This document shows, one piece after another, positions 1 through 42,178 of a DNA stretch of 64,000 nt. The stretch is taken from positions 7,725-71,724 of the IMG/VR virus record IMGVR_UViG_3300014039_000031; one strand, written 5' to 3'. The notes under the pieces were generated by a model that did not search any database, was not told where the DNA came from, and saw nothing but the letters and a program-made list of their open reading frames with translations. The stretch's first letter is position 1. Every line of letters begins with the position of its first letter. Made by a program: the position numbers and the translations under genes. The stretch comes from a virus.

Positions 1-35
1 TACCTTTTATTTATATAATTAAAAATATAAATAAT

Positions 36-207
36 CTCCATTATAGTCGTTGAACGTCTTTCTTATTATATAAGAAATTTCGCTGCGGATTACCTAATAT
101 TTGACGATTTTACCTTACCTTGGTCATTACCCTTGCCACTATTATATCACTATAATAGCTTGGTTGTCAAATCTCTAAAGGTGTTCCCGCAATTTAGAAG
201 ATTTTAT
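36..207 (-). repeat. Copy A of a ~175-bp conserved element; the near-identical copy B at 7758..7929 lies inside the ORF-less intervening sequence of dnaE; probable group I intron core located 3' of the nrdD exon
   Basis: Direct comparison: tctccattatagtcgttga(a/g)cgt, gattttacc(t/a)taccttggtc, ttcccgcaatttag(a/g)agattt shared. Confidence 0.5.
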
Positions 208-217
208 GTGAGCCTGT

Positions 218-1201
218 TTAATTCGTTAACCCACAAGTACGTGCAGCGACGTCCATCTTGTCTGTGTCTGTATTACCGCAGTTAGAGCACTCCCACCACG
301 TATTCCCATCGGTGTCTTTATGTACATCAATAGTCTGTGACTCGCCGCAAACGTGGCAATAGGAAGTCTTTGTATTAATCTCACAGTACATGATGTTATT
401 ATAAATACATTCTAGAATTGGATACAGAACGGAAATATTCTTAGATACATCTGAACTTTCTACGTAACTTAGGCAACCTCCGACAGAATACTTCTGGAAT
501 TCGCCTTCAAGTTCAATCTTGGAGAATGGGTCAATTGGTTGAGAACTCGGGATGTGATAAGAATTTTCAAAATACTTCTTGTTTCCAAATAGTTTCTTAA
601 ACTGGTCTGGATAACGTTCTTTGGTCTTAATCGCAAACTTGTAACATAATGATTCTGCTGGGGACGCATAAAGCGAATACCCTACGTTCTCTGCTTGTTT
701 CCATTCTTCACACTTGTTTGTCAAGAACTTGAGAATTCGTAACATCAGCTCTTGTCCGTTTTTGGTGAAATTATCTTCACCAATGAGAATCTTAACTGCT
801 TCGTTTCCTCCATTGTATCCAAGCGAGACTGTAGCATATCCATTGTGAACTAGCTTGTCTAGAGTCTCGTCTGGATCTAGTCTAGCTAAGGCTCCATCAA
901 CCCATAAGATTGGAGCTACGCCAGCTTTTGTTTTTGAAAGTCTATCAACTCGAACTTTTAGACCTGTGTGACAAATTTCAGCTCGTTCATCCAGTAATCT
1001 GAAAAAGATTTCAAGAAGATGTTCTTGAGATTTATCCCTGTCATATTTAAGTTCTTCTTGTGCGGCGAAAGCTGTATCTGGAAGATTCAGACTAGAAACG
1101 CCGCAATTGAATCGTCCATAATATTTTGGTTTGCCATCTTCATCTAAATATGGAGATAGGAAACTTCTACAACCCCATGAATATTCTATACAAAACGCCA
1201 C
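218..1201 (-). CDS. nrdD: Anaerobic ribonucleoside-triphosphate reductase NrdD, C-terminal exon (true 5' splice boundary lies inside the ORF; ends right at the glycyl-radical motif)
   Basis: C-terminus CHVCGES...WECSNCGN...AARTCG matches NrdD zinc ribbon plus glycyl radical loop; stop 3 codons later followed by intron-like repeat. Confidence 0.6.
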   Translation of the reverse strand: MAFCIEYSWGCRSFLSPYLDEDGKPKYYGRFNCGVSSLNLPDTAFAAQEELKYDRDKSQEHLLEIFFRLLDERAEICHTGLKVRVDRLSKTKAGVAPILWVDGALARLDPDETLDKLVHNGYATVSLGYNGGNEAVKILIGEDNFTKNGQELMLRILKFLTNKCEEWKQAENVGYSLYASPAESLCYKFAIKTKERYPDQFKKLFGNKKYFENSYHIPSSQPIDPFSKIELEGEFQKYSVGGCLSYVESSDVSKNISVLYPILECIYNNIMYCEINTKTSYCHVCGESQTIDVHKDTDGNTWWECSNCGNTDTDKMDVAARTCGLTN

Positions 1202-1589
1202 TTTTGTATACGTTCTCTTATGAACTGCTATATGTTTACATATAGATTAGACTATATCATATTCTTATTATTATAAGAATTTTTACATTTCGGTTATCTG
1301 TCGCTTATAACCTACGTCACATAAGGACTAGTCGTTAGGCTTTTATAGATATTGAATACTTTTAATCCCTCTGTTTAAATATCCTTTTGTTTTACTATTA
1401 TAAACAACACCCTGTTCATTGACCAAATACCATGACCAATTAGGTATCTTTTTCACATATAATCACCTCCACATTTTCAGGAGGTTTCTTCAACATCTAT
1501 TCTTAGCACGGTAAGTTATCTATATTTTTATAGACTTTCTCCGTTTAGAAAAATTTGCTATCAATATCACTATTGAAAGGCACAGTTAA
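1202..1589 (-). mobile_element. Intervening sequence splitting nrdD; candidate ORF-less group I intron
   Basis: 388 bp, no ORF, separates NrdD N- and C-terminal reading frames; contains ctacgtcacataagga similar to motif in other introns here. Confidence 0.4.
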
Positions 1590-2792
1590 TTAGTTTATGC
1601 AGGGGAAACAATGACCTTCGCCATTTGCATCTACCTTGATTTGCTTCATCACTTTCTCGCTGATATAATCAGGAGTTAAGCGTTTAGCAGAACATTCAAC
1701 CGCTTTCTGAGTTACATGCCAGTATTTAGTACCTGGCTTATAATTATCCTCTTCAAGAACATATAGTAGCTTAGGAAAAGCCTGAGTAACATATACACCT
1801 TGGCGATTCGGCATACCCTTTTCTCTCTGTTTTAGAAACTCTTTGATAAGAAGAACAAGTTCTTCTTTATATTCTTCTGTTTCGCCGATATACATAAATA
1901 AAGAGCAAAAAGGCGCCTGGCCGTTTAATGTAAACAGCGTTGAAATTTGATAATTAAAAGTTTGTACCGAATCTGCAATTTCTTTTTTTAAATCTGCAAG
2001 TGCAAACTTTTCTTTTAGTTCATCTGAAATATCTTCATTTTTATACTTGTTTTTGAAGATATTGTAACTATCACGAACAAAAGGAGCTAAATGAGTTAGT
2101 GTGATGGATTCTCCACCATAAGAATTAGCTGCGACACTAGCCATAATCTGCGTAGTTACAGTCATAGCTGTTAAAAGACGATGCGGCTTATTGATGCGCA
2201 CATTATTAATAACCGTGCCATTTTGCAGCATATCTTCTAGATTGATAAGGTCACAGTTATGAAGGGTTGATTGTGCCATATAATCCATATCATGTTGATG
2301 GCAGATACCAGCATCATGAGCTTCAATGACTTTTTTAGGGAAAATATAATTGCGAGCAATATCTGTGCTTGTAATACCAGCTAGATAATCTCGTTGTACC
2401 GTAACAAGTTTAGCATTTTTATTGCTGTTCTCTGTAGCCCAATAACTTTCTGGGTCATTTTTAATCATATCAAGAATTTCAGCGTCATTGTGTTTCTGAC
2501 GCGCGAGTTGGTGCTCATAACGATAAATCATATAAGATTTAGCGACATGCGGATAATCTCCCATGAGCAATTCTTCAACCGCATCTTGAATCTCTTCAAC
2601 AGTCATCTCATCATGGAAATATTCCGCATCTTGAAAATCTTGTGCGACATTTTTTGCTACGGAATGACAATCACTTTGTTCCCATCCAAGAGAATCAGAA
2701 ACATCACGTGCCGCACGATAGACCGCATTTTCAATCTTAGACAAATCAAATTTTACTTTGCTTCCATTTCGTTTTGTAATATATCTAGTCAA
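1590..2792 (-). CDS. nrdD: NrdD N-terminal exon (ATP-cone plus catalytic barrel N-part)
   Basis: N-terminus MTRYITKRNGSKVKFDLSKIENAV = ATP-cone; class III RNR-like. Confidence 0.7.
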   Translation of the reverse strand: MTRYITKRNGSKVKFDLSKIENAVYRAARDVSDSLGWEQSDCHSVAKNVAQDFQDAEYFHDEMTVEEIQDAVEELLMGDYPHVAKSYMIYRYEHQLARQKHNDAEILDMIKNDPESYWATENSNKNAKLVTVQRDYLAGITSTDIARNYIFPKKVIEAHDAGICHQHDMDYMAQSTLHNCDLINLEDMLQNGTVINNVRINKPHRLLTAMTVTTQIMASVAANSYGGESITLTHLAPFVRDSYNIFKNKYKNEDISDELKEKFALADLKKEIADSVQTFNYQISTLFTLNGQAPFCSLFMYIGETEEYKEELVLLIKEFLKQREKGMPNRQGVYVTQAFPKLLYVLEEDNYKPGTKYWHVTQKAVECSAKRLTPDYISEKVMKQIKVDANGEGHCFPCIN

Positions 2793-3723
2793 TACTTAAT
2801 CCTTTCTCTTGGTGAATAATCTTTAACATATCTTCAATATTTGATTGTAAAGGATAACGGTTGATTGATGTAGAACTCGCGGCAAATTCTTGTTTAACCA
2901 TATCAACATACATTGTGCTTCTACCATCTTCGCCCATATAGAACTGCTTGAATTCTTCTGGCGTCATCAAAGATTGTACATCGATTTGCTGTAACGCAAG
3001 ATTATCAAATGAAATATTCTGGAACCATTTCTCTTCAATCATTCGCGGCAGAGTATTTTGGATATATGCTTGATTGGTTTTAATGTCTTCACCAGCTTGC
3101 ATTAAATAATTTGTTCCACGTCCAAAGTTTTTATATCCAAGAATCAAGATTTTTAAATTATGGTGCGCCAAAGACTCTAGCTCATCTTTTGTAACAATTC
3201 CATTGATTACATGGACAACAATATTTGAATTACTCTTGGCCGCATCGATAAATTGTTTACTTGCATGATTTAAAGAAATACCGATACCATAAATTAATTT
3301 TTTGTCCGATAGCTCTTGAATAAAAGGAATATCCTGCATAAAATGCGTTTGATTAACAGTAATGGATGGAATAAGTTTCAATTTTCGGCACTTATATAGG
3401 AACTCTTCCAGGTCTGGATGTGTCATAATGTCTCCACCACCACAAGCTATTTGAGTGTATGGATGAAGTGAATCGATAAAAGACTTAGAAAGTAAATCAC
3501 CATGCAACCCATCTTTTGTTGACTTTTCATGGCAATAAGGACACCCTTTATAGCACCTATTCGTAATTTTAATATCCATTGAATCTGGAAATTTTGGCCG
3601 CAATTCATCATCTTTTGTATAACGAATCATTGTACCATCATTTAAATTAAGCATTACTACATAATTACCATTTTTATATTTTACAATATTAATGTTTTTA
3701 TCCATCATATCCAAAAAGTCCAA
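2785..3723 (-). CDS. Radical SAM protein (CxxxCxxC), NrdG-like activase candidate (longer than typical NrdG)
   Basis: RCYKGCPYCHE motif; adjacent to nrdD. Confidence 0.5.
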   Translation of the reverse strand: MDFLDMMDKNINIVKYKNGNYVVMLNLNDGTMIRYTKDDELRPKFPDSMDIKITNRCYKGCPYCHEKSTKDGLHGDLLSKSFIDSLHPYTQIACGGGDIMTHPDLEEFLYKCRKLKLIPSITVNQTHFMQDIPFIQELSDKKLIYGIGISLNHASKQFIDAAKSNSNIVVHVINGIVTKDELESLAHHNLKILILGYKNFGRGTNYLMQAGEDIKTNQAYIQNTLPRMIEEKWFQNISFDNLALQQIDVQSLMTPEEFKQFYMGEDGRSTMYVDMVKQEFAASSTSINRYPLQSNIEDMLKIIHQEKGLSID

Positions 3724-4171
3724 ACGCTATCATTTCATCGCCAGATGGAGAAGTAAATTCTTGTTCATAATATTCTAAATCATATATACTCTCAAAATCA
3801 TCATAAGACATAATTCCCAAATCAAAGCGTGCATCTCTACGCTTTTTGTTAACGTCATATGCATCCTCATTCATTTTATCAAAATAGGCGTCATGAAGCA
3901 TATTTGTATCAATGGGATGATACCATCTATTGCCTTTATACTTCTGCTCATAGATTGGCGCATATTCATCTAATGCATCTTGTACTTCTTCTTCTGTATA
4001 GATTTGACTTTGATGTTCTGGTAATAATTTTTGAAAATCATTTGAATAGGTATCAACAATATATGCTTCTCCATGACGAAATTTCCTAAATTCATCGCTT
4101 GTGCATATATTTAACGTATGCGTTGAAGATGAATTCGTTTCAAATACACTTGGCCGCACTTGAAAAATCAT
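3698..4171 (-). CDS. Hypothetical acidic protein
   Basis: ORF in operon context. Confidence 0.4.
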   Translation of the reverse strand: MIFQVRPSVFETNSSSTHTLNICTSDEFRKFRHGEAYIVDTYSNDFQKLLPEHQSQIYTEEEVQDALDEYAPIYEQKYKGNRWYHPIDTNMLHDAYFDKMNEDAYDVNKKRRDARFDLGIMSYDDFESIYDLEYYEQEFTSPSGDEMIAFGLFGYDG

Positions 4172-4246
4172 ATGTTATCCTTTCTATATAATATAAAAAT
4201 TCAATTATGTGATTATAACTATATTGTCCATGCATTAAAATGGATA

Positions 4247-4879
4247 TTATTTACACATTAACTCATTTACGCAATATTCAACGTAAAGGTTATTCACGAT
4301 TTTGCATACTGGATTTTTCACTTTTTTCGTTTTTATCCAAAGATAATTATCATGCGCTCTCGCACCAAGTCCAAACCATACATCAAAGCAATACTTATCT
4401 CCGAAATCATTATGGTCGGTCCAAGCTCTGCGCAAATATTCAAGTTTGAATTTATGCTCACGTTTATACGAACGTATCATTCTGATAATGAATGGAGTAT
4501 CTAGATATACATAAATAACTGTATATCGTCTTCCATATGAACTCAACGAATGAACGCCTTGCGGATTAAGTACGCAAACATTGACACTATTTTTTTTAAA
4601 AGAATTGACAGATGTGCCATAGTACCAATCACGGAATTCCGCACATTCAAGAAATTCATGGTTATGCTTTTTTTGCATAAATTCCATAGAATTTATAAAA
4701 TGATAATCTTCGCCATCAACTTCTCCTTCTCTCGGAGGACGTGTGGTATATGATACAACTTTATTTACTGGAACATTCTTAGACTTATAATACTTTACAA
4801 TTTGATTCTGCGTATAATTTTTTCCAGATGCAGACTTGCCGCAAATCGCTATTACTATTGGTTTCATTTTACCTCTCAA
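4247..4879 (-). CDS. Guanylate kinase-like nucleoside monophosphate kinase
   Basis: P-loop GKSASGK and TTRPPREGEVDGEDYHF guanylate kinase signature. Confidence 0.7.
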   Translation of the reverse strand: MRGKMKPIVIAICGKSASGKNYTQNQIVKYYKSKNVPVNKVVSYTTRPPREGEVDGEDYHFINSMEFMQKKHNHEFLECAEFRDWYYGTSVNSFKKNSVNVCVLNPQGVHSLSSYGRRYTVIYVYLDTPFIIRMIRSYKREHKFKLEYLRRAWTDHNDFGDKYCFDVWFGLGARAHDNYLWIKTKKVKNPVCKIVNNLYVEYCVNELMCK

Positions 4880-4951
4880 TAAAAATATAGGAGCAAACCT
4901 TTTCTGTTTACTCCTATATTATATCAAAATATTATTCAATTGTCAAAAATT

Positions 4952-6265
4952 TTATTCTTCACCATACCGTCTATTTGTCATTTCAATAGTACCATCAGAA
5001 TTGATTTGAGTGATTTTATATAACTGGTGCTGTGTTTGGCCTTTGCGTTTATATGCTTTTAAAATGAAAGTATCACCACGCCTAAAACCATTGCAAACTA
5101 CTAAAGTACCACGCTGAAAAAATCCTTGTTCCATAATTTTTTTTGAACCATCTGGCTTAATCTCACTAATACGTTTATTGTATTGAGAAAAGTATTCTTT
5201 AGACATTTTTACGTTAGCAATTCCTCCAAGAGTAGCTAAAGTAATCTGTGAATGTAATTCATCTTTTGCGATAACAGTCCCGGCTATGCGGCAAGTCTTA
5301 AAAATAGGAATATCTATATCATTACGTTTAAAAGTATAATCTACAGTCGGGGTTTGCGGCAAATCGTTAAAAGATACAATATCATACATATTCATTTTTA
5401 CATGAGATAATTCATGCTCATGGTAATACATGCCTAATGATTCCATTTCCCAATGAGAAATCGAACCAGCCGCATATTTATTCCATGCATCTTGGTCCAT
5501 TTTACCATTTAGTTTATTAAGTAGTTCTTGTTGATTCTCAATGATATAAGATTTTGCCGCACTCATTACCTTATCATATTCCTTTTTCCATACTTTTTTG
5601 TTAAGACATAATTGGTTGTCTATTGGCTCAATCATATCTTCATCAAAAAATTTGATAAAGAATTTATAATATACATCATGTAGCGCAAAATATTCCGAAT
5701 TAAATTTGCAATCTTTTTTTAATCCTTTATTAAAATTAAAAACTCGCTTTTGAATAATTAATCCTTTTGGAATTAAATTATTTTCAATTAAGGCATTAAA
5801 ATTCTGTAAAGTCAATTTCTTTTTAGGGTTAGTTGTAGTATGAAGATACTTCCGCATAATATCTTTACGTCCCCCAAAAGAATCAAAAGCACCAGACTTA
5901 ATTAATGATACCATAACAGTCTTATTAACTTTTGTCTTTCCTTCAAAATCTTCTAAAGACTTATAAGGGCGGTTTTCAATAATTTTTAAAGCAACTTCAT
6001 TGCCTACCCCTTGAAGCCCGCCAAGACCATAATGAATTACATTATTGTCTGCATCTGGTGTAAAAGAAAGCTCTGACTTATTTATGTCAATAAGTGAAAT
6101 TTTAATTCCTTCATTTTTCATCTTATTAACTGCTCGTGCGATTTTATTGTAATCAGATGATTTGTCATCCAAACCGGCAATCGTACCGCTATCGACAATA
6201 AGATTTGCACAGTTCCAAAAAATGACTGGAAATCGGAACGCTAAATTCATTTCTTGAAGGGCCAC
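4952..6265 (-). CDS. dnaE: DNA polymerase III alpha (DnaE-type) exon 3 (fingers/HhH/OB region)
   Basis: YGLGGLQGVGNEVALKIIENRPYKSLEDF = DnaE HhH region. Confidence 0.7.
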   Translation of the reverse strand: MALQEMNLAFRFPVIFWNCANLIVDSGTIAGLDDKSSDYNKIARAVNKMKNEGIKISLIDINKSELSFTPDADNNVIHYGLGGLQGVGNEVALKIIENRPYKSLEDFEGKTKVNKTVMVSLIKSGAFDSFGGRKDIMRKYLHTTTNPKKKLTLQNFNALIENNLIPKGLIIQKRVFNFNKGLKKDCKFNSEYFALHDVYYKFFIKFFDEDMIEPIDNQLCLNKKVWKKEYDKVMSAAKSYIIENQQELLNKLNGKMDQDAWNKYAAGSISHWEMESLGMYYHEHELSHVKMNMYDIVSFNDLPQTPTVDYTFKRNDIDIPIFKTCRIAGTVIAKDELHSQITLATLGGIANVKMSKEYFSQYNKRISEIKPDGSKKIMEQGFFQRGTLVVCNGFRRGDTFILKAYKRKGQTQHQLYKITQINSDGTIEMTNRRYGEE

Positions 6266-7461
6266 TAATGAGTACGCTAACGTATGTGATAAATTACGTT
6301 ATAAAATAACTGACTATTTCTTACGCTTTTTACCCAAGAGCCACTTGGTAAGCGCACGCTGTTTCCATCTACGTATCAATAGTAAATGTACTCTCGGTCT
6401 AACCCAAGATAGTCGATACAGCATTATTTGAAAAGATTATTCCATGTTTCTCTATTTGCCATTAGGTTATCTCGTAAAGGATATAAGAACCTATCATCGT
6501 AACGATTGCGGCCAACGTTAATTGCTGTAAAGGTTGATTTTGATTTATTGTATTTTTTCCCTAATGCTATCATAGATATATTAGTAAACAATAAATCATG
6601 TATAGCTTTTTTACCAAAATCTATATCAGCACACGCTTTATAACATAACGGATAAGTTTCATCATCTCTGTGCCACCTATGGCCAGAATTTATTTCACTC
6701 AAATATCCTTTACTAATATGATACTCGGCAGCAATATCATCATAATATTGTCCATTTTTAATTGCTTGAATAATTTTATCTTGTATTGCTTTTGAGTAAC
6801 TTGTTTTGTTCTTACCTAACGGATAATCTAATTTTTCGTTATAAAAATTTAAGCCAGAAGCTATGTTAGATAAAAAAGTGTTTGTCAAAATTGGATATTT
6901 TTGATAAATTTCAAAATATGCATATCCATCTACTAACATTTTTTGAATATCTGTCACTTGCTCTATGGTAAATACTTTACTACAAGCAACCCTTTCTTCA
7001 AAAGTTTTCGGATGCGGCATTTTGCCACTCCCGCCTATTTTAATATTGTATCCATTTTGGCTAGTTAATGATTTATAATATGCAATAAAGAAAATTTCTC
7101 TTTCGTCTACATATTCTTGTCCTAAACTGTCGTCAATTTCTTCTACAATTTCAAAATTAAAATTATTCCATCCATATTTTCTAATAGCATTGTGAAACGC
7201 ATTGGTGTAATCAGGTGATTTAGGATTATAAGCCGTAGATTTATGTCCACGTTTACGCTTCTCGATATTATTTGTTTGTCCTATGTATATTTTATCATTA
7301 ATTTTATTTGTAAATTTATAAATATAATGCATTTCCCCTCCCCTCATATAAAATAAATCTTTTCAAATTTTGCCACGAGATTTTACCCTCGTTAGCCTTA
7401 TATATTCTTCATTGGCTAAAAGTTAGAATTATAATTATATAAGACCATATTGATAAATATT
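6266..7461 (-). mobile_element. Intervening sequence B in dnaE carrying GIY-YIG homing endonuclease (group I intron-like)
   Basis: Separates dnaE exon 2 and 3 frames with stops; shares 16-mer ctacgtatcaatagta (6385..6400) with dnaB intron. Confidence 0.55.
6424..7347 (-). CDS. GIY-YIG homing endonuclease
   Basis: YIYKFTNKINDKIYIGQTNNIEKRKRGH N-terminal GIY-YIG. Confidence 0.8.
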   Translation of the reverse strand: MRGGEMHYIYKFTNKINDKIYIGQTNNIEKRKRGHKSTAYNPKSPDYTNAFHNAIRKYGWNNFNFEIVEEIDDSLGQEYVDEREIFFIAYYKSLTSQNGYNIKIGGSGKMPHPKTFEERVACSKVFTIEQVTDIQKMLVDGYAYFEIYQKYPILTNTFLSNIASGLNFYNEKLDYPLGKNKTSYSKAIQDKIIQAIKNGQYYDDIAAEYHISKGYLSEINSGHRWHRDDETYPLCYKACADIDFGKKAIHDLLFTNISMIALGKKYNKSKSTFTAINVGRNRYDDRFLYPLRDNLMANRETWNNLFK

Positions 7462-7692
7462 TTAGCGTGTAGGGTCCAACGTCTCAAACCCATATCCTCG
7501 ACTTGTAGCTACGCATACATTCCAAACGTAGTTACATAAGTTTTTACTAAGGTGTCGTTCGCGTACTCTTTCAAAGTATTCTTTTTCGCATTCTTTATAT
7601 GCTTCAGGTTGTTTCTTTGCCACGGATTTGCGGAGTCTATCGGCGAAGTTTAGATCAAAACCACCGCATTCAGGTATTTGAACCAACATCAT
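7462..7692 (-). CDS. dnaE: DnaE exon 2 (short middle exon)
   Basis: LVQIPECGGFDLNFADRLRKSV...SRGYGF aligns with DnaE [23 protein letters not shown]...AGYGF. Confidence 0.6.
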   Translation of the reverse strand: MMLVQIPECGGFDLNFADRLRKSVAKKQPEAYKECEKEYFERVRERHLSKNLCNYVWNVCVATSRGYGFETLDPTR

Positions 7693-8040
7693 AAACCTTT
7701 ATACCCCTGCTTTCGCAGTATTTGTTAGGGAGTAGACTATACAATCAACTTTCGTTGTCTCCATTATAGTCGTTGAGCGTTTCTCTGTTCTAGAGACTTC
7801 GATGCGTCTGGTTACCCAATCCTTAGTGATTTTACCATACCTTGGTCGCTAACCTTGCCGCCAATACATCCCTGTACTGGTTTGGTTACTAAGGCTCTAA
7901 GGGCTTTCCCGCAATTTAGGAGATTTATAGAGCGCTTTATAATTTTTATATTAAATAAAATTTTTCTTTTTTTTCGAGTTAAAAAGGAATCAAAATATTC
8001 ACCTCCAATCTTTTAATTCCTTTTTAACTTGTTTAGGTTG
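7693..8040 (-). mobile_element. Intervening sequence A in dnaE, ORF-less, contains repeat copy B (7758..7929)
   Basis: Exon 1 stops at ...YGICESQER* and exon 2 resumes MMLVQIP (DnaE YGIxxYQEQVMQIAQ); no ORF. Confidence 0.5.
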
Positions 8041-10350
8041 TTAACGCTCTTGCGACTCACAGATTCCGTATGAGATTTTCAGAACAGGTTCTAGAATCTT
8101 TTGTTCCTGTTTTGTTAACCCGTAATCGTCCATTTCTTGGTACCATAAAGATATATCTTTTTTAAACCTTGCGTATTTTTCAAGCGGTTGCTCCGCACCT
8201 TTTTCTTGTGCCATTAATCTGATTACACTATTTAAAGTAGCCAAATCGTCTACTGATTGCGGATGCGTTAATGCAATCCCCTGTACGCCACTTGACTTTT
8301 CCATCTGGAAACATGATTGAATTTTATGGTTCCAAAGCATTTCCCACATCTTAGGGTCATTACGTTCTATCTTATAAATACCAATAGCATTCTCATACGT
8401 CTCTTTTAATGTAGGATATTGCTTCAAATAACCATACTTGCAAAGTAATTCCAAGCATATTTGAATTTTATCCATCGCTTCAACAGAAAGTAGGTCGTAC
8501 TTAATAAGTGATAGTTTTTCAAGGTCATGTAAGTCAAATTGACTAATAATTGTACCATCAGGTGCTCGCATAAGTGCTGCGGTATTGGTAAACGGTTCAT
8601 CTACAAATACCAGTCCACCTGCGTGTATCCCCGAACGGCATACCAAACCTTCAATTCTAGATGCAACTTTCCATAGTTCTGAACGCTGCTTCATTTCTTG
8701 AACAAATGGAACAACAGGTTTCATACCTTCTTTATCGTCTCCATAATAACACTGATGAAGAGAACGAATAAGTCCACGGTCAGAAGGAACCAAAGAAGCA
8801 ATATATTGTGCAATATTGTTATCAATTCCTAGACCACGCGCGGCCGTTAAAATTGCTGATTTAGTTTTTTCTTTTCCAAGAGTAAGTACGTTACAAACCC
8901 TATCTTCACCGTATACATCACGAAATTTTTGAAGAATTTGTCCTCGCCGCAAACCAGACACATCTATGTCAACATCAAGGACAGACACTCGTTCAGGGTT
9001 GAGGAATCGCCAAGGGTATACTTTTGTAGTTTCTCGAAGTGCATTTATCTGGATGATTCCCAGTACATAAAGGATTAAAAAACCTCCGCCAGAGCCTCTT
9101 GAACAGCCGACAATAGACCCTGCTTCCCAAATGGTATCAATAATTTTCTGTAAATTTAGAAAATAAGATGACCAATGCGCATGATTAACAAGAGAACTTT
9201 GCCATACTGAATCAAGTTCTAGATTGATTTCATCGTATGCGGCCTGATTTTGTAAGTCTTTTTTCTCTTGAATACCTTGAAGGATTAGTTTGCCAAGCAA
9301 ATGGTCGCCTTCAAAATCAGATTCAAGAAGGTATTTTAGATTTGGAATTTTATCTTGAAAATCTCTAACTTGCTGCTCAGTGATATAACTATCTTTCCAT
9401 GGAAGTCGAGGAATTTTCAATGGTTTTTTAAGATTATAATCCTCACACTGATTTTTAATACATTCAATGTTTTTATATGCCGCGTATATTTGGTCTTTTG
9501 TCATATAGTTAAAGAAAGATTCAAGCTCTTCTGTACCCATCAAATAAGTTGTTGCATAAAAATCAGAAACCTCACGCTCTCCGTTTTGTGATTTGAGATA
9601 GGCTTCATGAATAAAGGCTTCATCTTTCTTTAAATAATGCGCATCACATGTAATAATATATGGAATATCTAACTTTTCAGATATTTTTAAAAACATCTTA
9701 TTTACAAAAATCTGTTCTGGATTATCAGACGGTTGCATTTCAAGATAAAAGTTACCTTTTCCAAAAATATTTTGAACATATTTTAACCATTTAATTGCCT
9801 GATTAAAATATTGTCTATCATGCGTGTTCATATACTTTACAAGTAACTGTTGGCAAAATCCACCGAGACACGCTGTTGAAGCAATTATATTACCTTGGTT
9901 TGGTTTAATAATATCAATCAAATCTTGATAGTATGTAGGTACTCGCCGCATACCGCGTGCCATATAGGAGCGCATCCACGCACGAGTAGAAATTTCACGA
10001 ATCTGTTGGTGCCCAGCCGCATTTTTTGCCAATAGAATGAAGTGATAATATTTATCTTCTTCTGGATTATAGTTTTCATTATTTAAACCATCGCGGCAAA
10101 GATAAATCTCATTACCTAAAATCACCTTAAAATTAGGATTATCCTTTTTGCGTTTTTCGTATGCTTCTTGTATCTTTACCGCATTTGCAACCGTTTCATG
10201 TTCAGTATATGCAATTACGTCTTGCCCTAATTCAAGTGCATAATCCATAATGCCTTCTACAGTATTTATTGAATCTCTAAGTCTAAGGTTCGAAAAATCA
10301 GTGTGGTTGTGTAAGCTCCCGGGATATTTTGTGAACTTTTTATGTTCCAT
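8041..10350 (-). CDS. dnaE: DnaE exon 1 (PHP domain + polymerase core)
   Basis: N-terminal PHP HNHTDFS, large Pol III alpha core. Confidence 0.8.
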   Translation of the reverse strand: MEHKKFTKYPGSLHNHTDFSNLRLRDSINTVEGIMDYALELGQDVIAYTEHETVANAVKIQEAYEKRKKDNPNFKVILGNEIYLCRDGLNNENYNPEEDKYYHFILLAKNAAGHQQIREISTRAWMRSYMARGMRRVPTYYQDLIDIIKPNQGNIIASTACLGGFCQQLLVKYMNTHDRQYFNQAIKWLKYVQNIFGKGNFYLEMQPSDNPEQIFVNKMFLKISEKLDIPYIITCDAHYLKKDEAFIHEAYLKSQNGEREVSDFYATTYLMGTEELESFFNYMTKDQIYAAYKNIECIKNQCEDYNLKKPLKIPRLPWKDSYITEQQVRDFQDKIPNLKYLLESDFEGDHLLGKLILQGIQEKKDLQNQAAYDEINLELDSVWQSSLVNHAHWSSYFLNLQKIIDTIWEAGSIVGCSRGSGGGFLILYVLGIIQINALRETTKVYPWRFLNPERVSVLDVDIDVSGLRRGQILQKFRDVYGEDRVCNVLTLGKEKTKSAILTAARGLGIDNNIAQYIASLVPSDRGLIRSLHQCYYGDDKEGMKPVVPFVQEMKQRSELWKVASRIEGLVCRSGIHAGGLVFVDEPFTNTAALMRAPDGTIISQFDLHDLEKLSLIKYDLLSVEAMDKIQICLELLCKYGYLKQYPTLKETYENAIGIYKIERNDPKMWEMLWNHKIQSCFQMEKSSGVQGIALTHPQSVDDLATLNSVIRLMAQEKGAEQPLEKYARFKKDISLWYQEMDDYGLTKQEQKILEPVLKISYGICESQER

Positions 10351-10767
10351 TTATTCTCCCTTTTTCTGTTCCTTTTCAGCACGCTCTTTCGCTTTTTGCT
10401 TGCGGCGTTTTGCTCCTGCTTTCTTGCCTTTTTCTTTCACCCAATCAATTTTTTTGTAGTCATATTTCTCAGACCATTTTTCAAAATCTTCCTGCGTAAA
10501 ACAATTTACAAGTTCTGGTACTCCACACTGAATCTCTTTTTTCATATAAGCGCCTTTTTGCCGACCTGTCATTTCATCGGGAAGAACTTCGCCTGTCAGA
10601 TGTTCGTAATTCAAATTCCAATTAAAGCGACTCATTTTACGTGTAGGCATACCTACTTCTGTTGTATAGCGACATTCTTTATTATAGCAAGTTGAATACC
10701 ACTTACTGTTCTTTTTAAAACCATTCACGTTATGCCGCCCGCATACAGGACATTTCGCCATTCGCAT
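10351..10767 (-). CDS. Hypothetical zinc-ribbon protein with basic tail
   Basis: CPVCG...C..C motifs, KR-rich C-terminus. Confidence 0.5.
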   Translation of the reverse strand: MRMAKCPVCGRHNVNGFKKNSKWYSTCYNKECRYTTEVGMPTRKMSRFNWNLNYEHLTGEVLPDEMTGRQKGAYMKKEIQCGVPELVNCFTQEDFEKWSEKYDYKKIDWVKEKGKKAGAKRRKQKAKERAEKEQKKGE

Positions 10768-10814
10768 AAAGTTACTCCTTTCATTTAGGACCTTTTATAA
10801 ATATATTATAACAT

Positions 10815-10848
10815 AAAAAAGCCCTCTAGTCAAATAAAACTAGAGGGC
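10815..10848 (-). terminator. Intrinsic terminator (gccctctag hairpin + U-run on minus strand)
   Basis: Inverted repeat 10821..10829/10840..10848 with A-run on plus side. Confidence 0.6.
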
Positions 10849-10862
10849 TAACGACTTATTTA

Positions 10863-11123
10863 TTAATAATGTGTAAATTCAATTGTATTATCATCATTAG
10901 TAAGATGGTCATATATATCTTTCTTTTTTAGTTCATCTGTTGGTTTGATGTTATTAGGCTGCTGACGCATAATATCATCCATGTAGCTTTCAACCATCTC
11001 CCAATCACTATAAATATCAATTTTATCAAACTTCTCACGAATAAGACTGTCCACGATAATATCATAACGTACAGCCTTATATACAAGATTCTTCAACTCA
11101 GTTTCTTCAATTAAAAGTTTCAT
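10863..11123 (-). CDS. Hypothetical protein
   Basis: ORF. Confidence 0.45.
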   Translation of the reverse strand: MKLLIEETELKNLVYKAVRYDIIVDSLIREKFDKIDIYSDWEMVESYMDDIMRQQPNNIKPTDELKKKDIYDHLTNDDNTIEFTHY

Positions 11124-11915
11124 TTAAAATATCCATTCATCTTCATTTTCTTCTAATTCGAAATCATCAATTAAAATTTGCGGCGTAACGTTTAAAGCAT
11201 ATTCCCAATGAGTATTATGTGTTTGAGAATACGTGCCTTTACAACACATACTAATAGAGCCATGTGGAATACCAGTTTCTTTTTCTGCTTGCCTTGCAGA
11301 TGGATATATAATATTTGTTTCTAAACATTTTACTGGAATTCCGTTACTATGCGTCCCATACATAGGATTTTTATTACCAGTCATATCTAAACTATGTTGT
11401 TTCTTCCATTCTTCTGTATGTGGTGGCCGACTATAGTCGGGGTCTAAGCGCATTCGTTCAAGTCCCTGCATCATTTTTATATGATGTTGCTTTCCTTCTT
11501 CGGTTTCCATAAAATTTTTTGCCCATTCTTTTCTTCTTTCGCGCTCTTTTTCAGTACAATTATATCCACAAATACCTTCTCCACCGCTTGTAAGATTATA
11601 TTGGTCTTTATCTATAAAAGTTTTAAAATAATTTATCCAATAACTTTCTCGTTCACTACCAATATTTTCATAGTCGCTTTTTGGAATTTCTTCTACGATT
11701 TCTATTTGAAAAAATTGTGCTCCATATTTTAAAATGGCATTTTCTACTGCATTTTTTCTCCTATTTGGATTTTTTGCTTCATATACATGACTTAACAATC
11801 GTTTTCTTATATTATTACTTTTTCCTATGTAACTATGTCCATTTATGCTATTAGTAATTTTGTATATTCCAGAGATATTATTATATTTATAGGGAATATT
11901 ATTTAAAAAATCCAT
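11124..11915 (-). CDS. GIY-YIG homing endonuclease, free-standing, C-terminal 25 aa homologous to the RecJ-like gene tail
   Basis: GIYKITNSINGHSYIGKSNNIRKRLLSHV; tail NVTPQILIDDFELEENEDEWIF. Confidence 0.8.
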   Translation of the reverse strand: MDFLNNIPYKYNNISGIYKITNSINGHSYIGKSNNIRKRLLSHVYEAKNPNRRKNAVENAILKYGAQFFQIEIVEEIPKSDYENIGSERESYWINYFKTFIDKDQYNLTSGGEGICGYNCTEKERERRKEWAKNFMETEEGKQHHIKMMQGLERMRLDPDYSRPPHTEEWKKQHSLDMTGNKNPMYGTHSNGIPVKCLETNIIYPSARQAEKETGIPHGSISMCCKGTYSQTHNTHWEYALNVTPQILIDDFELEENEDEWIF

Positions 11916-13618
11916 TCTATTTCATCTTCTTTAGCTACAACTTCAAAATCTTCAACTATAATTTGTGCTGTAACATTCCCCATCCAAGAATTTTTGGAAC
12001 ATTTGCCGACAATGGTTAGTTTCTTTTCTCCGCTTGTCCATTCCTCAAATTCTTCTCTGCTCGATTTAAATTTCATAATATCTACGCCAGAAGGTAGAGA
12101 AATCTTAATCGTAGGATGTCCTTTGGCTTCACCTAGTAGTTGGACATTAACATTATCTAATGGAATATCCTCAATAACAATTTTAGATTCTGGGATACCT
12201 TGACCATAGATATTTAATGCGGCAATATCTAGAACCGTTTTAGGATTAACTTGCATATAGTTCCAAATATAGTCTACATAATAGACTGGTTTAAAGTCAA
12301 TTCCTTGGTATTCTTTGTTGGTTACTTCTAGGAACTTATAATAGTTCTCTAAAGGTATCTCAAACCCGAACGCTGAGGTGTGGCCCTGCGCGAAATCTAT
12401 TAAACCGGTATTTTCACAGAGACTTCTCATATCTTCGATGGGGCAATAAGAATAGTTACGGGCACTGCCACGTAAATGAATTCCGTCTTCTTCTTCGACT
12501 TCTTGAAGTACCAAAGTTGGGTGTTGATATTTCGCTTGAATTTTATTTGCCGCAAGACCTAAAATGGAACTGGGAATATCATCTTTGCCGCATACACAAA
12601 TGATAATGGCATTATCAGTTAATCTCTTCTCTTGGATTTGATATTCAAGAAATTCCATAGCTTCATCTTGCAGCTTGGTTTGTCTACGCTTTACACGTTC
12701 GATAACGGTAATTGCCTCTTGCCAAAGAGGAACCTTTTTCCCTTTTTCACCCCTCTTGGATGATAGAACCATTGTATCACATTTATAGTCCAGAAGAGCA
12801 TTCATAAGCAGCCGTTTCTCAACCATCTCACCACTTCTACACATCGCGTTGATATAAGGGGTAATATAAAACGCCCAACTAAGATAATTAGAACCGTTCA
12901 TTTTATTCAACGAAAATTCCTGCTTTTTTACAAACTCACTAATGAATTTATTATGTAAATTAGACGTGCCTAGTTTGACAATTGCTCGTGTCTCCTGAGT
13001 AGTATATAACATCATATCGCTTAAGTTACCAAGAGCACATAAATCAATATAATCTTTTGCATAATTAAAATTAAAGAGTTCATCTAACATGCGGCAAAGC
13101 TGCCATGTAATGCCTGCACCGCTGAAATCTTTGTTCGGATAATTGTCCAATTGATTATTTACAACAATAGCATCTTCTGAATACTTCTCACATATATGAT
13201 GGTCAAGGCAGCAAACATCAACGTTATTATCTTTGAGATACTTATGTTGTTCATAATCGTTACTAGAAGAATCCGGTAAGATTAACAAATCTGTTGTATC
13301 AATAATCTCGTCTAAATCTATATCTGCAAGACCATGAGCTTTCCCTTCATGGATGACAATATTGGGCTCTTTTCCACAGATGCGATTAATGTAATTTGCA
13401 ATGATGCTAACGCTCGTGCATCCATCCACGTCACAGTCCTGTAAGATGGAGATTTTAGAATCCTTCCACATGCAGTGATTACCAATCATAACAGCAGCAT
13501 CTTTAATGTTCCGAAGCAAATGGTAGTCATTGATACTTTCTAATCCCGCATCCAACCACTTTTCTTGTTCTTCTACTGGAATATCTCTATTATACAAAAT
13601 TTGTTGCAGAGGTGTCAA
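11903..13618 (-). CDS. DHH-family phosphoesterase, RecJ-like ssDNA exonuclease
   Basis: DVDGCTS and LDHH motifs. Confidence 0.65.
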   Translation of the reverse strand: MTPLQQILYNRDIPVEEQEKWLDAGLESINDYHLLRNIKDAAVMIGNHCMWKDSKISILQDCDVDGCTSVSIIANYINRICGKEPNIVIHEGKAHGLADIDLDEIIDTTDLLILPDSSSNDYEQHKYLKDNNVDVCCLDHHICEKYSEDAIVVNNQLDNYPNKDFSGAGITWQLCRMLDELFNFNYAKDYIDLCALGNLSDMMLYTTQETRAIVKLGTSNLHNKFISEFVKKQEFSLNKMNGSNYLSWAFYITPYINAMCRSGEMVEKRLLMNALLDYKCDTMVLSSKRGEKGKKVPLWQEAITVIERVKRRQTKLQDEAMEFLEYQIQEKRLTDNAIIICVCGKDDIPSSILGLAANKIQAKYQHPTLVLQEVEEEDGIHLRGSARNYSYCPIEDMRSLCENTGLIDFAQGHTSAFGFEIPLENYYKFLEVTNKEYQGIDFKPVYYVDYIWNYMQVNPKTVLDIAALNIYGQGIPESKIVIEDIPLDNVNVQLLGEAKGHPTIKISLPSGVDIMKFKSSREEFEEWTSGEKKLTIVGKCSKNSWMGNVTAQIIVEDFEVVAKEDEIEWIF

Positions 13619-13650
13619 ATTATCCAGTGTCGGCTTATATAATTTATAAT

Positions 13651-13878
13651 CTATTTTTCATCAACTCCAAACTCTTTGCACATGCATCCAGCCAATGTCT
13701 TAAAACTTAAAATATAAGGATAAATACGTTTATCTTTAATAGCACACTCAGGAGGAACAAAATCAGTTAATTTTACCTCATGCGGCACATATGGATAAAA
13801 ATAATATTTGCAGTATCGACAACGCTTATGCTTGCGGCGATAGTTAAGAATCTTTAGCTTATCCCTTTTTGTCATCAT
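13651..13878 (-). CDS. Hypothetical Cys-rich small protein
   Basis: ORF. Confidence 0.35.
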   Translation of the reverse strand: MMTKRDKLKILNYRRKHKRCRYCKYYFYPYVPHEVKLTDFVPPECAIKDKRIYPYILSFKTLAGCMCKEFGVDEK

Positions 13879-13989
13879 CTATCACTTCATCCCACCATTC
13901 AGGTTTTACGTCACTTCTATAATGAGTATATTTTTTAATACGCAACCATGTAAAAAAAGATTTGACGCGCCAAGGAAATGGTACATATT

Positions 13990-40847: not shown

Positions 40848-40922
40848 GGGCCATTAGCTCAGTTGGATTAGAGCCTGAAACTTCTATTTTCAAAGTCGCG
40901 CGTTCGAGTCGCGCATGGCTCA
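40848..40922 (+). tRNA. tRNA-Arg (anticodon TCT)
   Basis: Manual cloverleaf: GGGCCAT/ATGGCTC acceptor, GCTC/GAGC D stem, TGAAA-CTTCTAT-TTTCA anticodon arm, GCGCG-TTCGAGT-CGCGC T arm; flanked by inverted repeat cagtctacta/tagtagactg. Confidence 0.8.
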
Positions 40923-40969
40923 CTTAGTAGACTGGCAATAAGTTAGTCTATGTTATTTAAAACAGCATT

Positions 40970-41152
40970 TTGAAAGGATTTATTGTGAAAATTCGTGATT
41001 GGGAAGACTTCGATGAAGAGGATAACTTTGAAAAATTTTCCCATAAGACAAAACTAATTCGCCAGCGCAAAGATGATACTTATAAAAGTAAGCGTCGTGA
41101 GAAGCGTGAGCGTCAAGAATTTGAAGAAAATGCTGCGAAGGGCGGGGAGTAA
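40970..41152 (+). CDS. Hypothetical small basic protein (non-ATG start likely)
   Basis: ORF. Confidence 0.3.
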   Translation: MKGFIVKIRDWEDFDEEDNFEKFSHKTKLIRQRKDDTYKSKRREKRERQEFEENAAKGGE

Positions 41153-41236
41153 TTCCTGCCCTTTTTTATTATAAAAAATAGTTGCCATTTGCCACATAAT
41201 CATATATAATATATTTACCAAAAGAAAGAGGTAAGT

Positions 41237-42172: not shown

Positions 42173-42178
42173 TTTTAG

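What the first reader, a model, noticed from the sequence alone, without database searches (positions are those of the whole stretch)
36..207. Conserved ~175-bp element present both in dnaE intron A and immediately 3' of the nrdD exon
36..207 and 7758..7929 are about 80% identical over their length. The second copy forms the 3' part of the ORF-less dnaE intervening sequence. The first copy follows the nrdD ORF, which terminates three codons after its glycyl-radical RTCG motif. In class III RNRs the Gly-radical loop is RxCGY followed by more residues. This implies a second nrdD intron whose downstream exon lies beyond the left window edge, with the two introns sharing a homologous ribozyme core.
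Basis: seen in the sequence. Interest (0 to 1): 0.6.

Follow-up and report, generated by a model that had tools for sequence, protein, structure and literature searches.

The report
Second self-splicing intron in phage nrdD
The repeated ~170-base element is the catalytic core of two related group I self-splicing introns: one in the phage's DNA polymerase gene, and one cut by the window edge that splits the anaerobic ribonucleotide reductase gene right after its radical-bearing glycine, which is a real but ordinary kind of phage feature.

Summary

- **The repeat is real.** Window 36-207 and 7758-7929 are 78% identical over aligned columns (blastn E = 6e-26). On the minus strand each copy matches the P3-to-P3' core of Rfam's group I intron model.
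- **The missing part was recovered.** A public contig 99.9% identical to the window supplies the 44 bases beyond the left edge. The full nrdD intron is 272 nt (window 228..1 plus those 44 nt) and scores 56.3 bits against RF00028, above the gathering score of 50.
- **Removing it restores the gene.** Splicing gives ...ARTCG|YVGVNFWNDGKTQEIASRYKHIDDHEIGEK*. This aligns to the C-terminus of T4 NrdD and matches the uninterrupted nrdD of 16 of 17 related viral contigs, apart from the final residue.
- **The second copy is also an intron.** It lies in dnaE intron A (8043..7696), whose removal gives ...ESQER|FMMLVQ..., as in intron-less relatives.
- **Structure is conserved.** Each intron's guide sequence pairs with its own exon. 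Twelve helix pairs differ between the copies by compensatory changes.
- **This is not a recent duplication.** The copies are no closer to each other (72%) than to family members in other phages.
- **Both have lost their endonuclease gene.** Relatives carry LAGLIDADG or HNH endonuclease genes in the same introns.
- **The nrdD site is used elsewhere.** The same site is occupied in Enterocloster phage CB457P1 and in Clostridium nrdD genes, unannotated at least in CB457P1.

Verdict: a new member of a known kind.

The parts
1..228 (-). nrdD intron 2 (group I): the first 228 of 272 nt. The last 44 nt (rest of P7', P9, terminal G) lie beyond the window's left edge, at L001 14172-14215.
   Evidence: RF00028 scores 46.1 bits on the window part and 56.3 bits, above the gathering score of 50, over the full model on L001 13869-14197. 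Boundaries are fixed by intron-less alleles.
36..207 (-). It runs from the last base of the internal guide sequence through P3, P4, P5 and its extension, P6, J6/7 and the P7 5' strand to P3'.
229..235 (-). Last 7 nt of nrdD exon 2 (UGUGGGU), the 5' strand of P1. The final U forms the U.G wobble at the 5' splice site. GGG is the codon of the radical glycine (RTCG).
   Evidence: Complementary to the guide sequence GCUCACA at 213..207. Aligns with T4 NrdD residue 580, which is Ala in the matched PDB sequence at the position where the query has Gly.
207..213 (-). Internal guide sequence GCUCACA (P1 3' strand) of nrdD intron 2.
   Evidence: read directly from the sequence
43..54 (-). J6/7 and P7 5' strand (UUCAACGACUAU). 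A bulged C is followed by the G-C pair expected for the guanosine-binding site. Identical in copy 2 apart from its first base (C instead of U).
   Evidence: P7 is paired in 97.6% of cells in 7 family members. The partner AUAGUCU starts at window 1 and continues beyond the edge.
229..1175 (-). nrdD exon 2.
   Evidence: The spliced 744-aa NrdD is colinear with the uninterrupted NrdD of L026.
1176..1596 (-). nrdD intron 1 (421 nt), a group I intron of a different sequence family.
   Evidence: Weak RF00028 hits at 1334..1228 and 1544..1465. Boundaries come from the intron-less relatives L026/L029, which read ...GEGDCYACMGCRSFL.
1597..2792 (-). nrdD exon 1 (ATP-cone plus the N-terminal part of NRDD).
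7696..8043 (-). dnaE intron A (348 nt, group I, no ORF), the intron that holds copy 2.
   Evidence: Intron-less relatives read ...ICESQERFMMLVQIPECGG across the site. RF00028 core hit of 19 bits. Homology to nrdD intron 2. 92% identical ortholog in L046.
7758..7929 (-).
7929..7935 (-). Internal guide sequence GCGCUCU of dnaE intron A. It pairs with the exon end AGAGCGU at 8050..8044.
   Evidence: read directly from the sequence
7946..8028 (-). Scar of a deleted homing-endonuclease gene in the P1 loop. The ribosome-binding site GGAGGUG plus a UUG start (8006..7991) is joined to the last 45 nt of the ORF (7990..7946). The region folds into a long hairpin.
   Evidence: Alignment with L046, where a 268-aa LAGLIDADG ORF fills the gap; fold.
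8044..10350 (-). dnaE exon 1.
7487..7695 (-). dnaE exon 2.
6297..7486 (-). dnaE intron B, carrying a GIY-YIG endonuclease ORF (7347..6424).
   Evidence: Intron-less L031 reads GYGFNLSHTL across the site. GIY-YIG scores 36.5 bits.
4952..6296 (-). dnaE exon 3.

Best explanation
The element at window 1-228 (minus strand) is the 5' five-sixths of a 272-nt ORF-less group I intron. It interrupts the phage's class III ribonucleotide reductase gene nrdD after the first base of the Tyr codon that follows the radical glycine (RTCG|Y).

Inferred mechanism, the standard group I pathway:
1. The exon end UGUGGGU pairs with the intron's guide sequence GCUCACA to form P1, with a U.G wobble at the splice site.
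2. An external guanosine bound in P7 attacks there.
3. The freed exon end then attacks after the intron's last G.
4. This joins GGG-U to AU-GUG-GGA, so the mRNA encodes ...RTCGYVGVNFWNDGKTQEIASRYKHIDDHEIGEK.

Without splicing, translation stops three codons into the intron and NrdD lacks its last 31 residues.

The second copy is the same kind of ribozyme core in dnaE intron A (8043..7696). The two look alike because they belong to one widespread family of phage and clostridial group I introns, not because one was recently copied from the other. Both are endonuclease-less derivatives of mobile introns.
For: **Shown here**
- Rfam RF00028 match on the correct strand for both copies. The full-length nrdD intron in the 99.9%-identical contig L001 scores 56.3 bits against a gathering score of 50, E = 3.8e-13.
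- The predicted spliced tail aligns with T4 NrdD residues 576-604 (RTC[A]YLG...N.GK..EI..R.KH), inside an overall match of E = 3e-50.
- 16 of 17 related IMG/VR contigs have an uninterrupted nrdD reading ...ARTCGY[VI]G.NFWN.GKTQE... across the site. In the 12 closest the tail is identical to the prediction through ...DDHE or further.
- The fully spliced 744-aa NrdD is colinear end to end with an intron-less relative.
- For dnaE intron A, ten intron-less relatives read ...ESQERFMMLVQ... across the site.
- In four insertion contexts the guide sequence complements its own exon: nrdD UGUGGGU/GCUCACA; CB457P1 AUGUGGGU/GCUCACGU; dnaE AGAGCGU/GCGCUCU; a terminase-like gene AAUUCCGU/GCGGAAUU.
- The hand-drawn P3-P9 structure on 7 family members has 93.2% of cells paired, against 37-44% when partners are slid. 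31 of 55 pairs show compensatory change, and 0 of 500 shuffles reach the observed values.
- Between the two window copies, 38 pairs are identical, 12 compensatory, 3 changed on one side and 1 broken.
- Minimum-free-energy folds recover P4, P5, P6, P7, P8 and P9, with z = -3.3 and -3.5.
- Both introns end in G, and an in-frame stop follows the 5' splice site (UAA at once in dnaE, after 3 codons in nrdD). The review PMC3984707 notes this stop as typical.

**Inferred**
- Actual self-splicing and its chemistry.
Against: - No RNA evidence: splicing was not observed.
- The part of the nrdD intron inside the window scores 46.1 bits, below Rfam's gathering score of 50. dnaE intron A alone scores only 19 bits.
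- No convincing P10 pairing was found by eye.
- P2 and P7.1/P7.2 are absent, so the subgroup is not assigned.
- The leftward extension comes from near-identical public contigs, not from the window's own record.
Confidence: 0.94

Rival explanations
1. The two copies are a recent intragenomic duplication. One intron would have transposed, by reverse splicing or illegitimate recombination, from dnaE to nrdD or the reverse within this phage.
For: - Both copies lie in one genome 7.7 kb apart and share 72-78% identity.
- The guide sequences differ exactly as retargeting would require.
Against: - They are no closer to each other (72.4%) than nrdD intron 2 is to the same-site intron of Enterocloster phage CB457P1 (73.2%) or to the dnaE intron of an unrelated contig (73.5%).
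- dnaE intron A has a 92% identical ortholog at the same dnaE site in L046.
- Each site is occupied independently in other genomes.
- An ancient ectopic move within the family is not excluded. It is implied by one family occupying nrdD, dnaE and a terminase-like gene.
Confidence: 0.04
2. The element is a decayed, non-splicing intron remnant. nrdD would then be a truncated pseudogene, or a protein that works without its C-terminal tail.
For: - No endonuclease gene is present.
- Gene callers report nrdD ending at RTCGLTN*.
- The Rfam score of the in-window part is below the gathering score.
Against: - All core helices, the bulge plus G-C pair in P7, the terminal G and the P1 pairing are intact, and changes are compensatory.
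- Exon 3 is intact, in frame and ends at a stop just before nrdG. Its protein sequence matches intron-less relatives.
- The intron region is identical in 12 of the 13 near-identical public contigs examined; the other has a 1-nt insertion.
- The tail after the radical glycine is conserved from T4 to E. coli-type NrdD.
Confidence: 0.03
3. The element is a repeated terminator, promoter or other regulatory DNA element placed after nrdD and inside the dnaE gap.
For: - AT-rich hairpins are present (P8, and the hairpin in the P1 loop of dnaE intron A).
Against: - There is a group I covariance-model match with covariation.
- A continuing exon exists.
- Precise excision restores both reading frames.
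Confidence: 0.01

Closest known systems
Phage T4 nrdD (sunY) group I intron with I-TevII
   Same: [quoted passage not shown] It is variably present among related phages, and nrdD is the RNR gene most often split in phages (PMC2988022, PMC3653736).
   Different: - **Site:** the I-TevII ORF inside the T4 intron lies about 1.3 kb upstream of the nrdD stop, and the last 166 codons are contiguous in T4-like genomes. Here the intron sits 31 codons from the end, at the radical glycine.
- **Endonuclease:** the T4 intron carries a GIY-YIG gene; this one has none.
- **Structure:** from my own knowledge, T4 introns are subgroup IA2 with P7.1/P7.2, which this intron lacks.
Unannotated intron in nrdD of Enterocloster phage CB457P1 (OP172753)
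   Same: It occupies the same insertion site (RTCG|Y, phase 1), is a homologous ribozyme (72-73% identity), uses the same P1 exon strand UGUGGGU, and its nrdD ORF likewise ends three codons into the intron.
   Different: - It has an extra hairpin in P9 and a longer P8.
- A metagenomic variant (L184) carries a frameshifted HNH endonuclease ORF in P8.
- The GenBank record annotates nrdD as ending at RTCGLTL and does not annotate the intron.
Group I introns at the same site in Clostridium nrdD (C. paraputrificum NCTC11833, Sarcina ventriculi NCTC12966, C. cuniculi and others)
   Same: Same site, same P1 hairpin start (UGUGGGU|UAAC...GGCUCAC) and a terminal G. Exon 3 encodes Y[IV]G..WNKGRTAEIGDRVLHL.
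   Different: - These are in bacterial genome assemblies. The one locus examined has an nrdD-nrdG operon with no phage genes within 8 kb.
- They are only 58-67% identical to the phage intron.
- The two scanned (L100, L094) fall below Rfam's gathering score.
Multi-intron genes of Gram-positive phages (Twort nrdE and orf142, SPO1-family DNA polymerase, Bacillus prophage nrdE/F)
   Same: Several group I introns lie in replication and nucleotide-metabolism genes, inserted at highly conserved functional residues, with a mix of endonuclease-bearing and ORF-less forms (PMC3653736, PMC3984707). blastn links this intron's core to introns in SPO1-like Bacillus phages, Enterococcus phages, Vequintavirinae, PhiPA3 and crAss-like phages.
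   Different: - The host genes here are a DnaE-type polymerase and nrdD.
- The phage is uncultured; its DnaE is at most 38% identical to that of any deposited phage.

Membership tests
Group I self-splicing intron (Rfam RF00028) | Match to the family covariance model at or above the curated gathering score | tested here: met
   The full nrdD intron on L001 scores 56.3 bits against 50, over model positions 1-253. The in-window part alone scores 46.1 bits, and dnaE intron A 19 bits, both below threshold. dnaE intron A is included through its homology to the nrdD intron (E = 6e-26).
Group I self-splicing intron (Rfam RF00028) | P1 formed by the 5' exon end and an internal guide sequence, with U.G at the splice site | tested here: met
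   nrdD UGUGGGU/GCUCACA and dnaE AGAGCGU/GCGCUCU. The guide sequence co-varies with the exon in four insertion contexts.
Group I self-splicing intron (Rfam RF00028) | Conserved core P3-P4-P5-P6-P7-P8-P9, including the P3/P7 pseudoknot, supported by covariation | tested here: met
   93.2% of cells paired against 37-44% in slid controls; 31 of 55 pairs compensatory. P8 could not be scored in common columns, but each member has a hairpin there.
Group I self-splicing intron (Rfam RF00028) | Guanosine-binding P7 (bulged nucleotide followed by a G-C pair) and a terminal G at the 3' splice site | tested here: met
   A-C(bulge)-GACUAU pairs with AUAGUC-U, invariant in all 7 members. The introns end ...UUAAAG and ...UAAAGG.
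Group I self-splicing intron (Rfam RF00028) | Precise removal restores a reading frame colinear with uninterrupted homologues | tested here: met
   nrdD: 16 intron-less alleles and T4 NrdD. dnaE: ten intron-less alleles.
Group I self-splicing intron (Rfam RF00028) | Guanosine-dependent self-splicing activity | not testable with these tools
   Needs an in-vitro GTP-labelling or splicing assay, or RNA reads across the junction.
Mobile (homing) group I intron | Intron-encoded homing endonuclease | tested here: not met
   No ORF of 40 aa or more on the RNA strand in either intron. dnaE intron A keeps only the ribosome-binding site, start codon and last 45 nt of a LAGLIDADG gene that is present in L046. 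Same-site nrdD introns with an HNH gene exist elsewhere.
Mobile (homing) group I intron | Presence/absence polymorphism among related genomes at the same site | tested here: met
   nrdD site: 1 of 17 IMG/VR relatives occupied. dnaE site A: empty in the ten relatives whose sequence spans it but occupied in L046. No co-conversion tract is detectable, because the relatives are about 90% identical throughout.
T4-type subgroup IA2 phage introns | P7.1/P7.2 hairpins between P3' and P8, and a P2 helix (definition recalled from my own knowledge, not checked against a subgroup model) | tested here: not met
   Only one hairpin (P8) lies between P3' and P7', and only 4 nt lie between P1 and P3. The subgroup is left unassigned.
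Class III ribonucleotide reductase NrdD (host gene) | NRDD and Gly_radical domains with the C-terminal RxCGY glycyl-radical motif and conserved tail | tested here: met
   Pfam NRDD and Gly_radical on the called exons. T4 NrdD match E = 3e-50 reaching residue 604 of 605 only after splicing. An NrdG-type activase (Fer4_12, 142 bits) lies directly downstream.

The most novel reading that the evidence does not exclude
One family of small, mostly endonuclease-less group I introns moves between the nrdD genes of Clostridium hosts and of their phages. It always targets the codon boundary next to the radical glycine, and it has been retargeted, by changing only its guide sequence, to dnaE and terminase-like genes. 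In that reading the nrdD intron is a shared host-phage mobile element. Splicing might then gate production of active anaerobic reductase, since the unspliced mRNA yields a protein that has the glycine but lacks the tail. Bacterial nrdD would be a new, overlooked class of bacterial protein-coding intron host.
Probability: 0.15. Interest if true: 0.55.

Novelty: new member of a known kind. Interest (0 to 1): 0.3.

Why it matters
For this genome, the result corrects two gene models.
- nrdD has three exons (744 aa), not a 400-aa and a 327-aa fragment.
- dnaE has three exons (1286 aa).

More generally, it shows that a conserved group I intron family sits at the catalytic glycine of class III ribonucleotide reductases. 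The family is present in at least two phage lineages and in several Clostridium genome assemblies. The three tested relatives fall below Rfam's gathering score, and the deposited CB457P1 record annotates nrdD as C-terminally truncated. The window also gives a clean example of endonuclease-gene loss from mobile introns.

None of this changes what is known about how group I introns work.

Tried and rejected
- **Megablast of window 1-8500 against deposited phages** found only short hits to nrdD intron 1, so no close cultured relative exists.
- **Exact-protein look-up of the 312-aa radical-SAM ORF** failed because the annotated start differs. The 157-aa and 307-aa versions worked.
- **Rfam at gathering threshold on the window** found only tRNAs. 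The intron became visible only with the E-value threshold.
- **No further group I hits** in window 8400-64000.
- **Test for a recent duplication** was rejected by the identity matrices.
- **Test for a co-conversion tract next to the nrdD insertion site** gave no local excess of divergence. Relatives are about 90% identical throughout, so recent gain and loss cannot be told apart.
- **Pattern CGNACNTGTGGGTTAAC in IMG/VR** gave mostly chance hits; only 3 of 17 were real.
- **The small ORF in nrdD intron 1** has no Pfam match, so I do not call it an endonuclease remnant.
- **My first guess at the T4 nrdD coordinates** was wrong and was corrected.
- **An 11-nt GAAA-receptor-like motif** (CCUUAG / UAUGG) that might dock the L9 GAAA loop was considered. 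It could not be placed consistently in the secondary structure, so it is not claimed.
- **P10** was not identified.

Full report
**1. The observation**

All genes in the first 15 kb of the window are on the minus strand. Window 36-207 and 7758-7929 align with 130 identities in 167 aligned columns, which is 77.8%, or 73.4% counting gaps. MAFFT gave 78%. blastn of the element against the whole window gave E = 6e-26 for the second copy, and no other hit to the ribozyme core. The nrdD ORF ends ...ARTCGLTN* at window 218.

**2. What the two copies are**

At Rfam's gathering thresholds the window yields only tRNAs. With an E-value threshold, both copies match the group I intron model RF00028 on the minus strand, over model positions 47-158. 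That span runs from P3 through P4, P5, P6 and the P7 5' strand to P3'.
- Copy 1 (205..33): 46.1 bits, E = 1.9e-9.
- Copy 2 (7925..7757): 19 bits.

In copy 1 the match stops where P8 should begin. The window then ends inside the sequence expected to form the 3' strand of P7, so the window edge cuts the RNA.

**3. Extending to the left**

A 157-aa protein encoded at 3698-4171 occurs on many public contigs. Locus L001 (ENA ERZ26859180, a 114.8-kb contig) matches the reverse complement of window 1-14171 with 12 mismatches. The mapping is L001 position = 14172 minus window position.

In L001, the sequence after ...CGU ACU UGU GGG U is a 272-nt stretch. It begins UAACGAAUUAAACAGGCUCACA and ends ...GGGGUAUUAAAG. 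After it comes AU GUG GGA GUU AAC UUC UGG..., which runs to a stop 92 nt later. The stop overlaps the start of an NrdG-type activase gene.

Scanned whole, this intron scores 56.3 bits against RF00028 over the full model, above the gathering score of 50 (E = 3.8e-13). In window coordinates the intron is 228..1 plus 44 nt beyond the edge.

**4. The exon continues as predicted**

Joining GGG-U to AU-GUG gives ...DVAARTCGYVGVNFWNDGKTQEIASRYKHIDDHEIGEK*.
- Exons 2 and 3 together match T4 NrdD (PDB 1h78) at E = 3e-50. The new tail aligns with T4 residues 576-604 of 605 (RTC[A]YLGNPNERGFNLGKNKEIMHRVKH), which include radical-glycine position 580.
- Of 17 related IMG/VR contigs, 16 have an uninterrupted nrdD reading ...ARTCGY[VI]G.NFWN.GKTQE... 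across the site. The 12 closest match the predicted tail through ...DDHE or further. Only the contig identical to this phage has the intron.
- Taking the first intron's boundaries from intron-less relatives as well, the spliced gene is 2235 nt and encodes 744 aa. It is colinear end to end with the uninterrupted NrdD of L026 at 70% identity.

The splice sites are unambiguous: shifting either one changes the product.

**5. The dnaE copy**

Ten relatives that lack an insertion at this site read ...SYG[IL]CESQERFMMLVQIPECGG. This places dnaE intron A at 8043..7696 (348 nt). The 5' site follows GAGCGU, and the 3' site follows ...GGGGUAUAAAGG. The alternative one-base shift gives the same product but would end the intron in U rather than G.

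Copy 2 (7758-7929) is the guide-sequence-to-P3' segment of this intron. A further 62 nt (P8, P7', P9) follow it, and 114 nt precede it.

**6. Structure and covariation**

Each intron's guide sequence is complementary to its own exon, with a U.G wobble at the splice site:

| Host gene | Exon end | Guide sequence |
|---|---|---|
| nrdD (this phage) | UGUGGGU | GCUCACA |
| dnaE (this phage) | AGAGCGU | GCGCUCU |
| nrdD (CB457P1) | AUGUGGGU | GCUCACGU |
| terminase-like gene (L047) | AAUUCCGU | GCGGAAUU |

I drew a P3-P9 structure, including the P3/P7 pseudoknot, on an alignment of seven family members.
- 93.2% of cells are paired, against 37-44% when partners are slid by 1-3 columns.
- 31 of 55 pairs carry compensatory changes.
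- No shuffle out of 500 reaches the observed values.
- Between the two window copies alone, 38 pairs are identical, 12 compensatory, 3 changed on one side and 1 broken.

P7 is nearly invariant and has the bulge followed by a G-C pair expected of the guanosine site. L9 is a GAAA loop in six of the seven members. P6a, P8 and the P9 stem differ in sequence but keep their pairing. Minimum-free-energy folds recover most of these helices, with z = -3.3 and -3.5. There is no P2 and no P7.1/P7.2, and I did not assign a subgroup.

**7. Relationship between the two copies**

Over the full core, the identities are:
- the two window introns to each other: 72.4%;
- nrdD intron to the same-site intron of Enterocloster phage CB457P1: 73.2%;
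- nrdD intron to the dnaE intron of L046: 73.5%;
- dnaE intron A to its L046 ortholog: 91.7% (similar values).

The repeat therefore reflects shared family membership and ribozyme conservation, not a recent duplication within this genome. blastn finds the same core in 98 deposited phage records. These include Enterococcus phages, SPO1-like Bacillus phages, Vequintavirinae, PhiPA3 and crAss-like phages.

**8. Loss of homing endonuclease genes**

In L046 the ortholog of dnaE intron A carries a 268-aa LAGLIDADG ORF in the P1 loop (PF14528, 34.2 bits). The window intron matches L046 up to the ribosome-binding site, the UUG start and two more bases. It matches again from the last 45 nt of the ORF onwards, so about 745 nt have been deleted. 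The joined ends form a long hairpin.

For the nrdD site, longer versions carry an HNH endonuclease ORF in P8.
- L182 (717 nt): HNH_3 at 38.1 bits, plus NUMOD4.
- L184 (703 nt), which is CB457P1-like: the ORF is frameshifted.

This phage's nrdD intron has only an AT-rich P8 hairpin. Both window introns are thus ORF-less derivatives of mobile introns. How they now spread, if they do, is inferred only. Candidate routes are recombination during co-infection, or cleavage by an endonuclease supplied in trans.

**9. The same site elsewhere**

Enterocloster phage CB457P1 (OP172753) has a homologous intron at exactly this position. Its record annotates nrdD as ending RTCGLTL and leaves the intron and third exon unannotated.

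A scan for the P1 hairpin (TGTGGGTTAAC...GGCTCAC) also found the site occupied in bacterial genome assemblies:
- Clostridium paraputrificum NCTC11833;
- Sarcina ventriculi NCTC12966;
- C. cuniculi;
- a C. perfringens MAG;
- other Clostridium assemblies;
- about 19 metagenome contigs.

In all that I parsed, the intron is 236-717 nt, ends in G and is followed by Y[IVL]G...; the clostridial exon 3 reads Y[IV]G..WNKGRT.EIG.RVLHL*. In C. paraputrificum the interrupted gene is part of an nrdD-nrdG operon, flanked by DUF2207 and metallophosphoesterase genes, with no phage genes within 8 kb. The two scanned clostridial introns (L100, L094) and the CB457P1 intron do not reach Rfam's gathering score.

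A 2014 review lists only flagellin, recA and nrdE as bacterial protein-coding hosts of group I introns (PMC3984707). My literature searches found no report of a Clostridium nrdD intron. However, RNRdb's curators mention more than 100 manually curated RNR introns (PMC2795772), so I do not claim priority.

**10. Comparison with what is known**

Group I introns in phage nrdD have been known since T4, and nrdD is the RNR gene most often split in phage genomes (PMC2988022; PMC3653736). Gut jumbo phages have nrdD fragmented by many group I introns, with RNA evidence of splicing (PMC12880540).

The T4 intron sits elsewhere in the gene. Its I-TevII ORF lies about 1.3 kb upstream of the stop, and the last 166 codons are contiguous in T4-like genomes.

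The phage itself is uncultured. Its contigs are about 145 kb, and its DnaE is at most 38% identical to that of any deposited phage.

**11. Verdict**

The feature is a genuine group I intron truncated by the window edge, homologous to dnaE intron A. It is a new member of a well-known kind of element.

The modestly interesting aspects are:
- the insertion exactly at the radical-glycine codon boundary;
- its recurrence in Clostridium and phage nrdD genes that standard annotation misses;
- the clear endonuclease-loss scars.

Splicing itself remains inferred.

Noticed in passing
L100 5331-5608 (C. paraputrificum NCTC11833); also L094, L075, L088, L089, L080, L081, L101, L102, L104, L111: Homologous group I introns occupy the same RTCG|Y site in nrdD of Clostridium genome assemblies. 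In the one locus examined (L100) the gene is in an nrdD-nrdG operon with no phage genes nearby. The two scanned with Rfam (L100, L094) score below the gathering threshold. I found no report of this in the searchable literature.
   Followed up: partly
L013 3491-3785 (Enterocloster phage CB457P1, OP172753): The GenBank record annotates nrdD as ending RTCGLTL. A 295-nt group I intron and a 27-codon third exon (YIGTHYWNYGRTEEIRDRFVHLGDNEN*) are unannotated.
   Followed up: yes
window 1176-1596 (minus strand): nrdD intron 1 is 421 nt, from a different group I sequence family. The 327-aa ORF that gene callers report as 'exon 2' starts inside this intron. The true exon 2 begins at 1175 (...CFPC|MGCRSFL).
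   Followed up: yes
window 7946-8028 (minus strand) and L046 1236-2042: dnaE intron A keeps the ribosome-binding site, the UUG start and the last 45 nt of a LAGLIDADG endonuclease gene. That gene is intact (268 aa) in the orthologous intron of IMG/VR contig 3300013426_000349. The deletion scar folds into a long hairpin.
   Followed up: yes
window 6297-7486 (minus strand): dnaE intron B is inserted at GYGF|N and carries a 307-aa GIY-YIG endonuclease ORF. In relatives the same site holds different introns, one of which (L039/L040/L043/L044) belongs to the same family as the two copies studied here.
   Followed up: partly
L042, L045 and L032 (relatives' dnaE): Related phages have interruptions at further dnaE positions (after ATSRG, after SVA, and one upstream in exon 1). 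The polymerase gene of this phage group is a hotspot with at least five insertion sites.
   Followed up: no
L182 and L184 (metagenome contigs): Same-site nrdD introns of about 700 nt carry an HNH (HNH_3 plus NUMOD4) endonuclease ORF in P8. In L184 the ORF is split by a frameshift in an A-run.
   Followed up: partly
window 11124-11915 (minus strand): A free-standing GIY-YIG endonuclease gene (263 aa) lies between the RecJ-like gene and small ORFs. It is shortened to 236 aa in some near-identical contigs (L002, L008, L012).
   Followed up: no
window 2785-3723 (minus strand): A 307/312-aa radical-SAM-like ORF (Radical_SAM 25.3 bits, below the cut-off) overlaps the nrdD start. It is distinct from the NrdG-type activase, which lies beyond the left edge (L001 14304-14828, Fer4_12 142 bits).
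   Followed up: no
window 40848-51476 (plus strand): A cluster of at least 8 tRNA genes. A weak YrlA (Y RNA-like) hit lies among them at 47493-47581 (31.8 bits against a gathering score of 69).
   Followed up: no
window 229-235 and L001 14216-14224: The heptamer UGUGGG(U/A) occurs on both sides of the nrdD intron: at the exon 2 end (UGUGGGU), and near the exon 3 start (A-UGUGGGA). The guide sequence could therefore pair with either. Intron-less alleles read UGCGGAU and UGUUGGA instead. Significance unknown.
   Followed up: no
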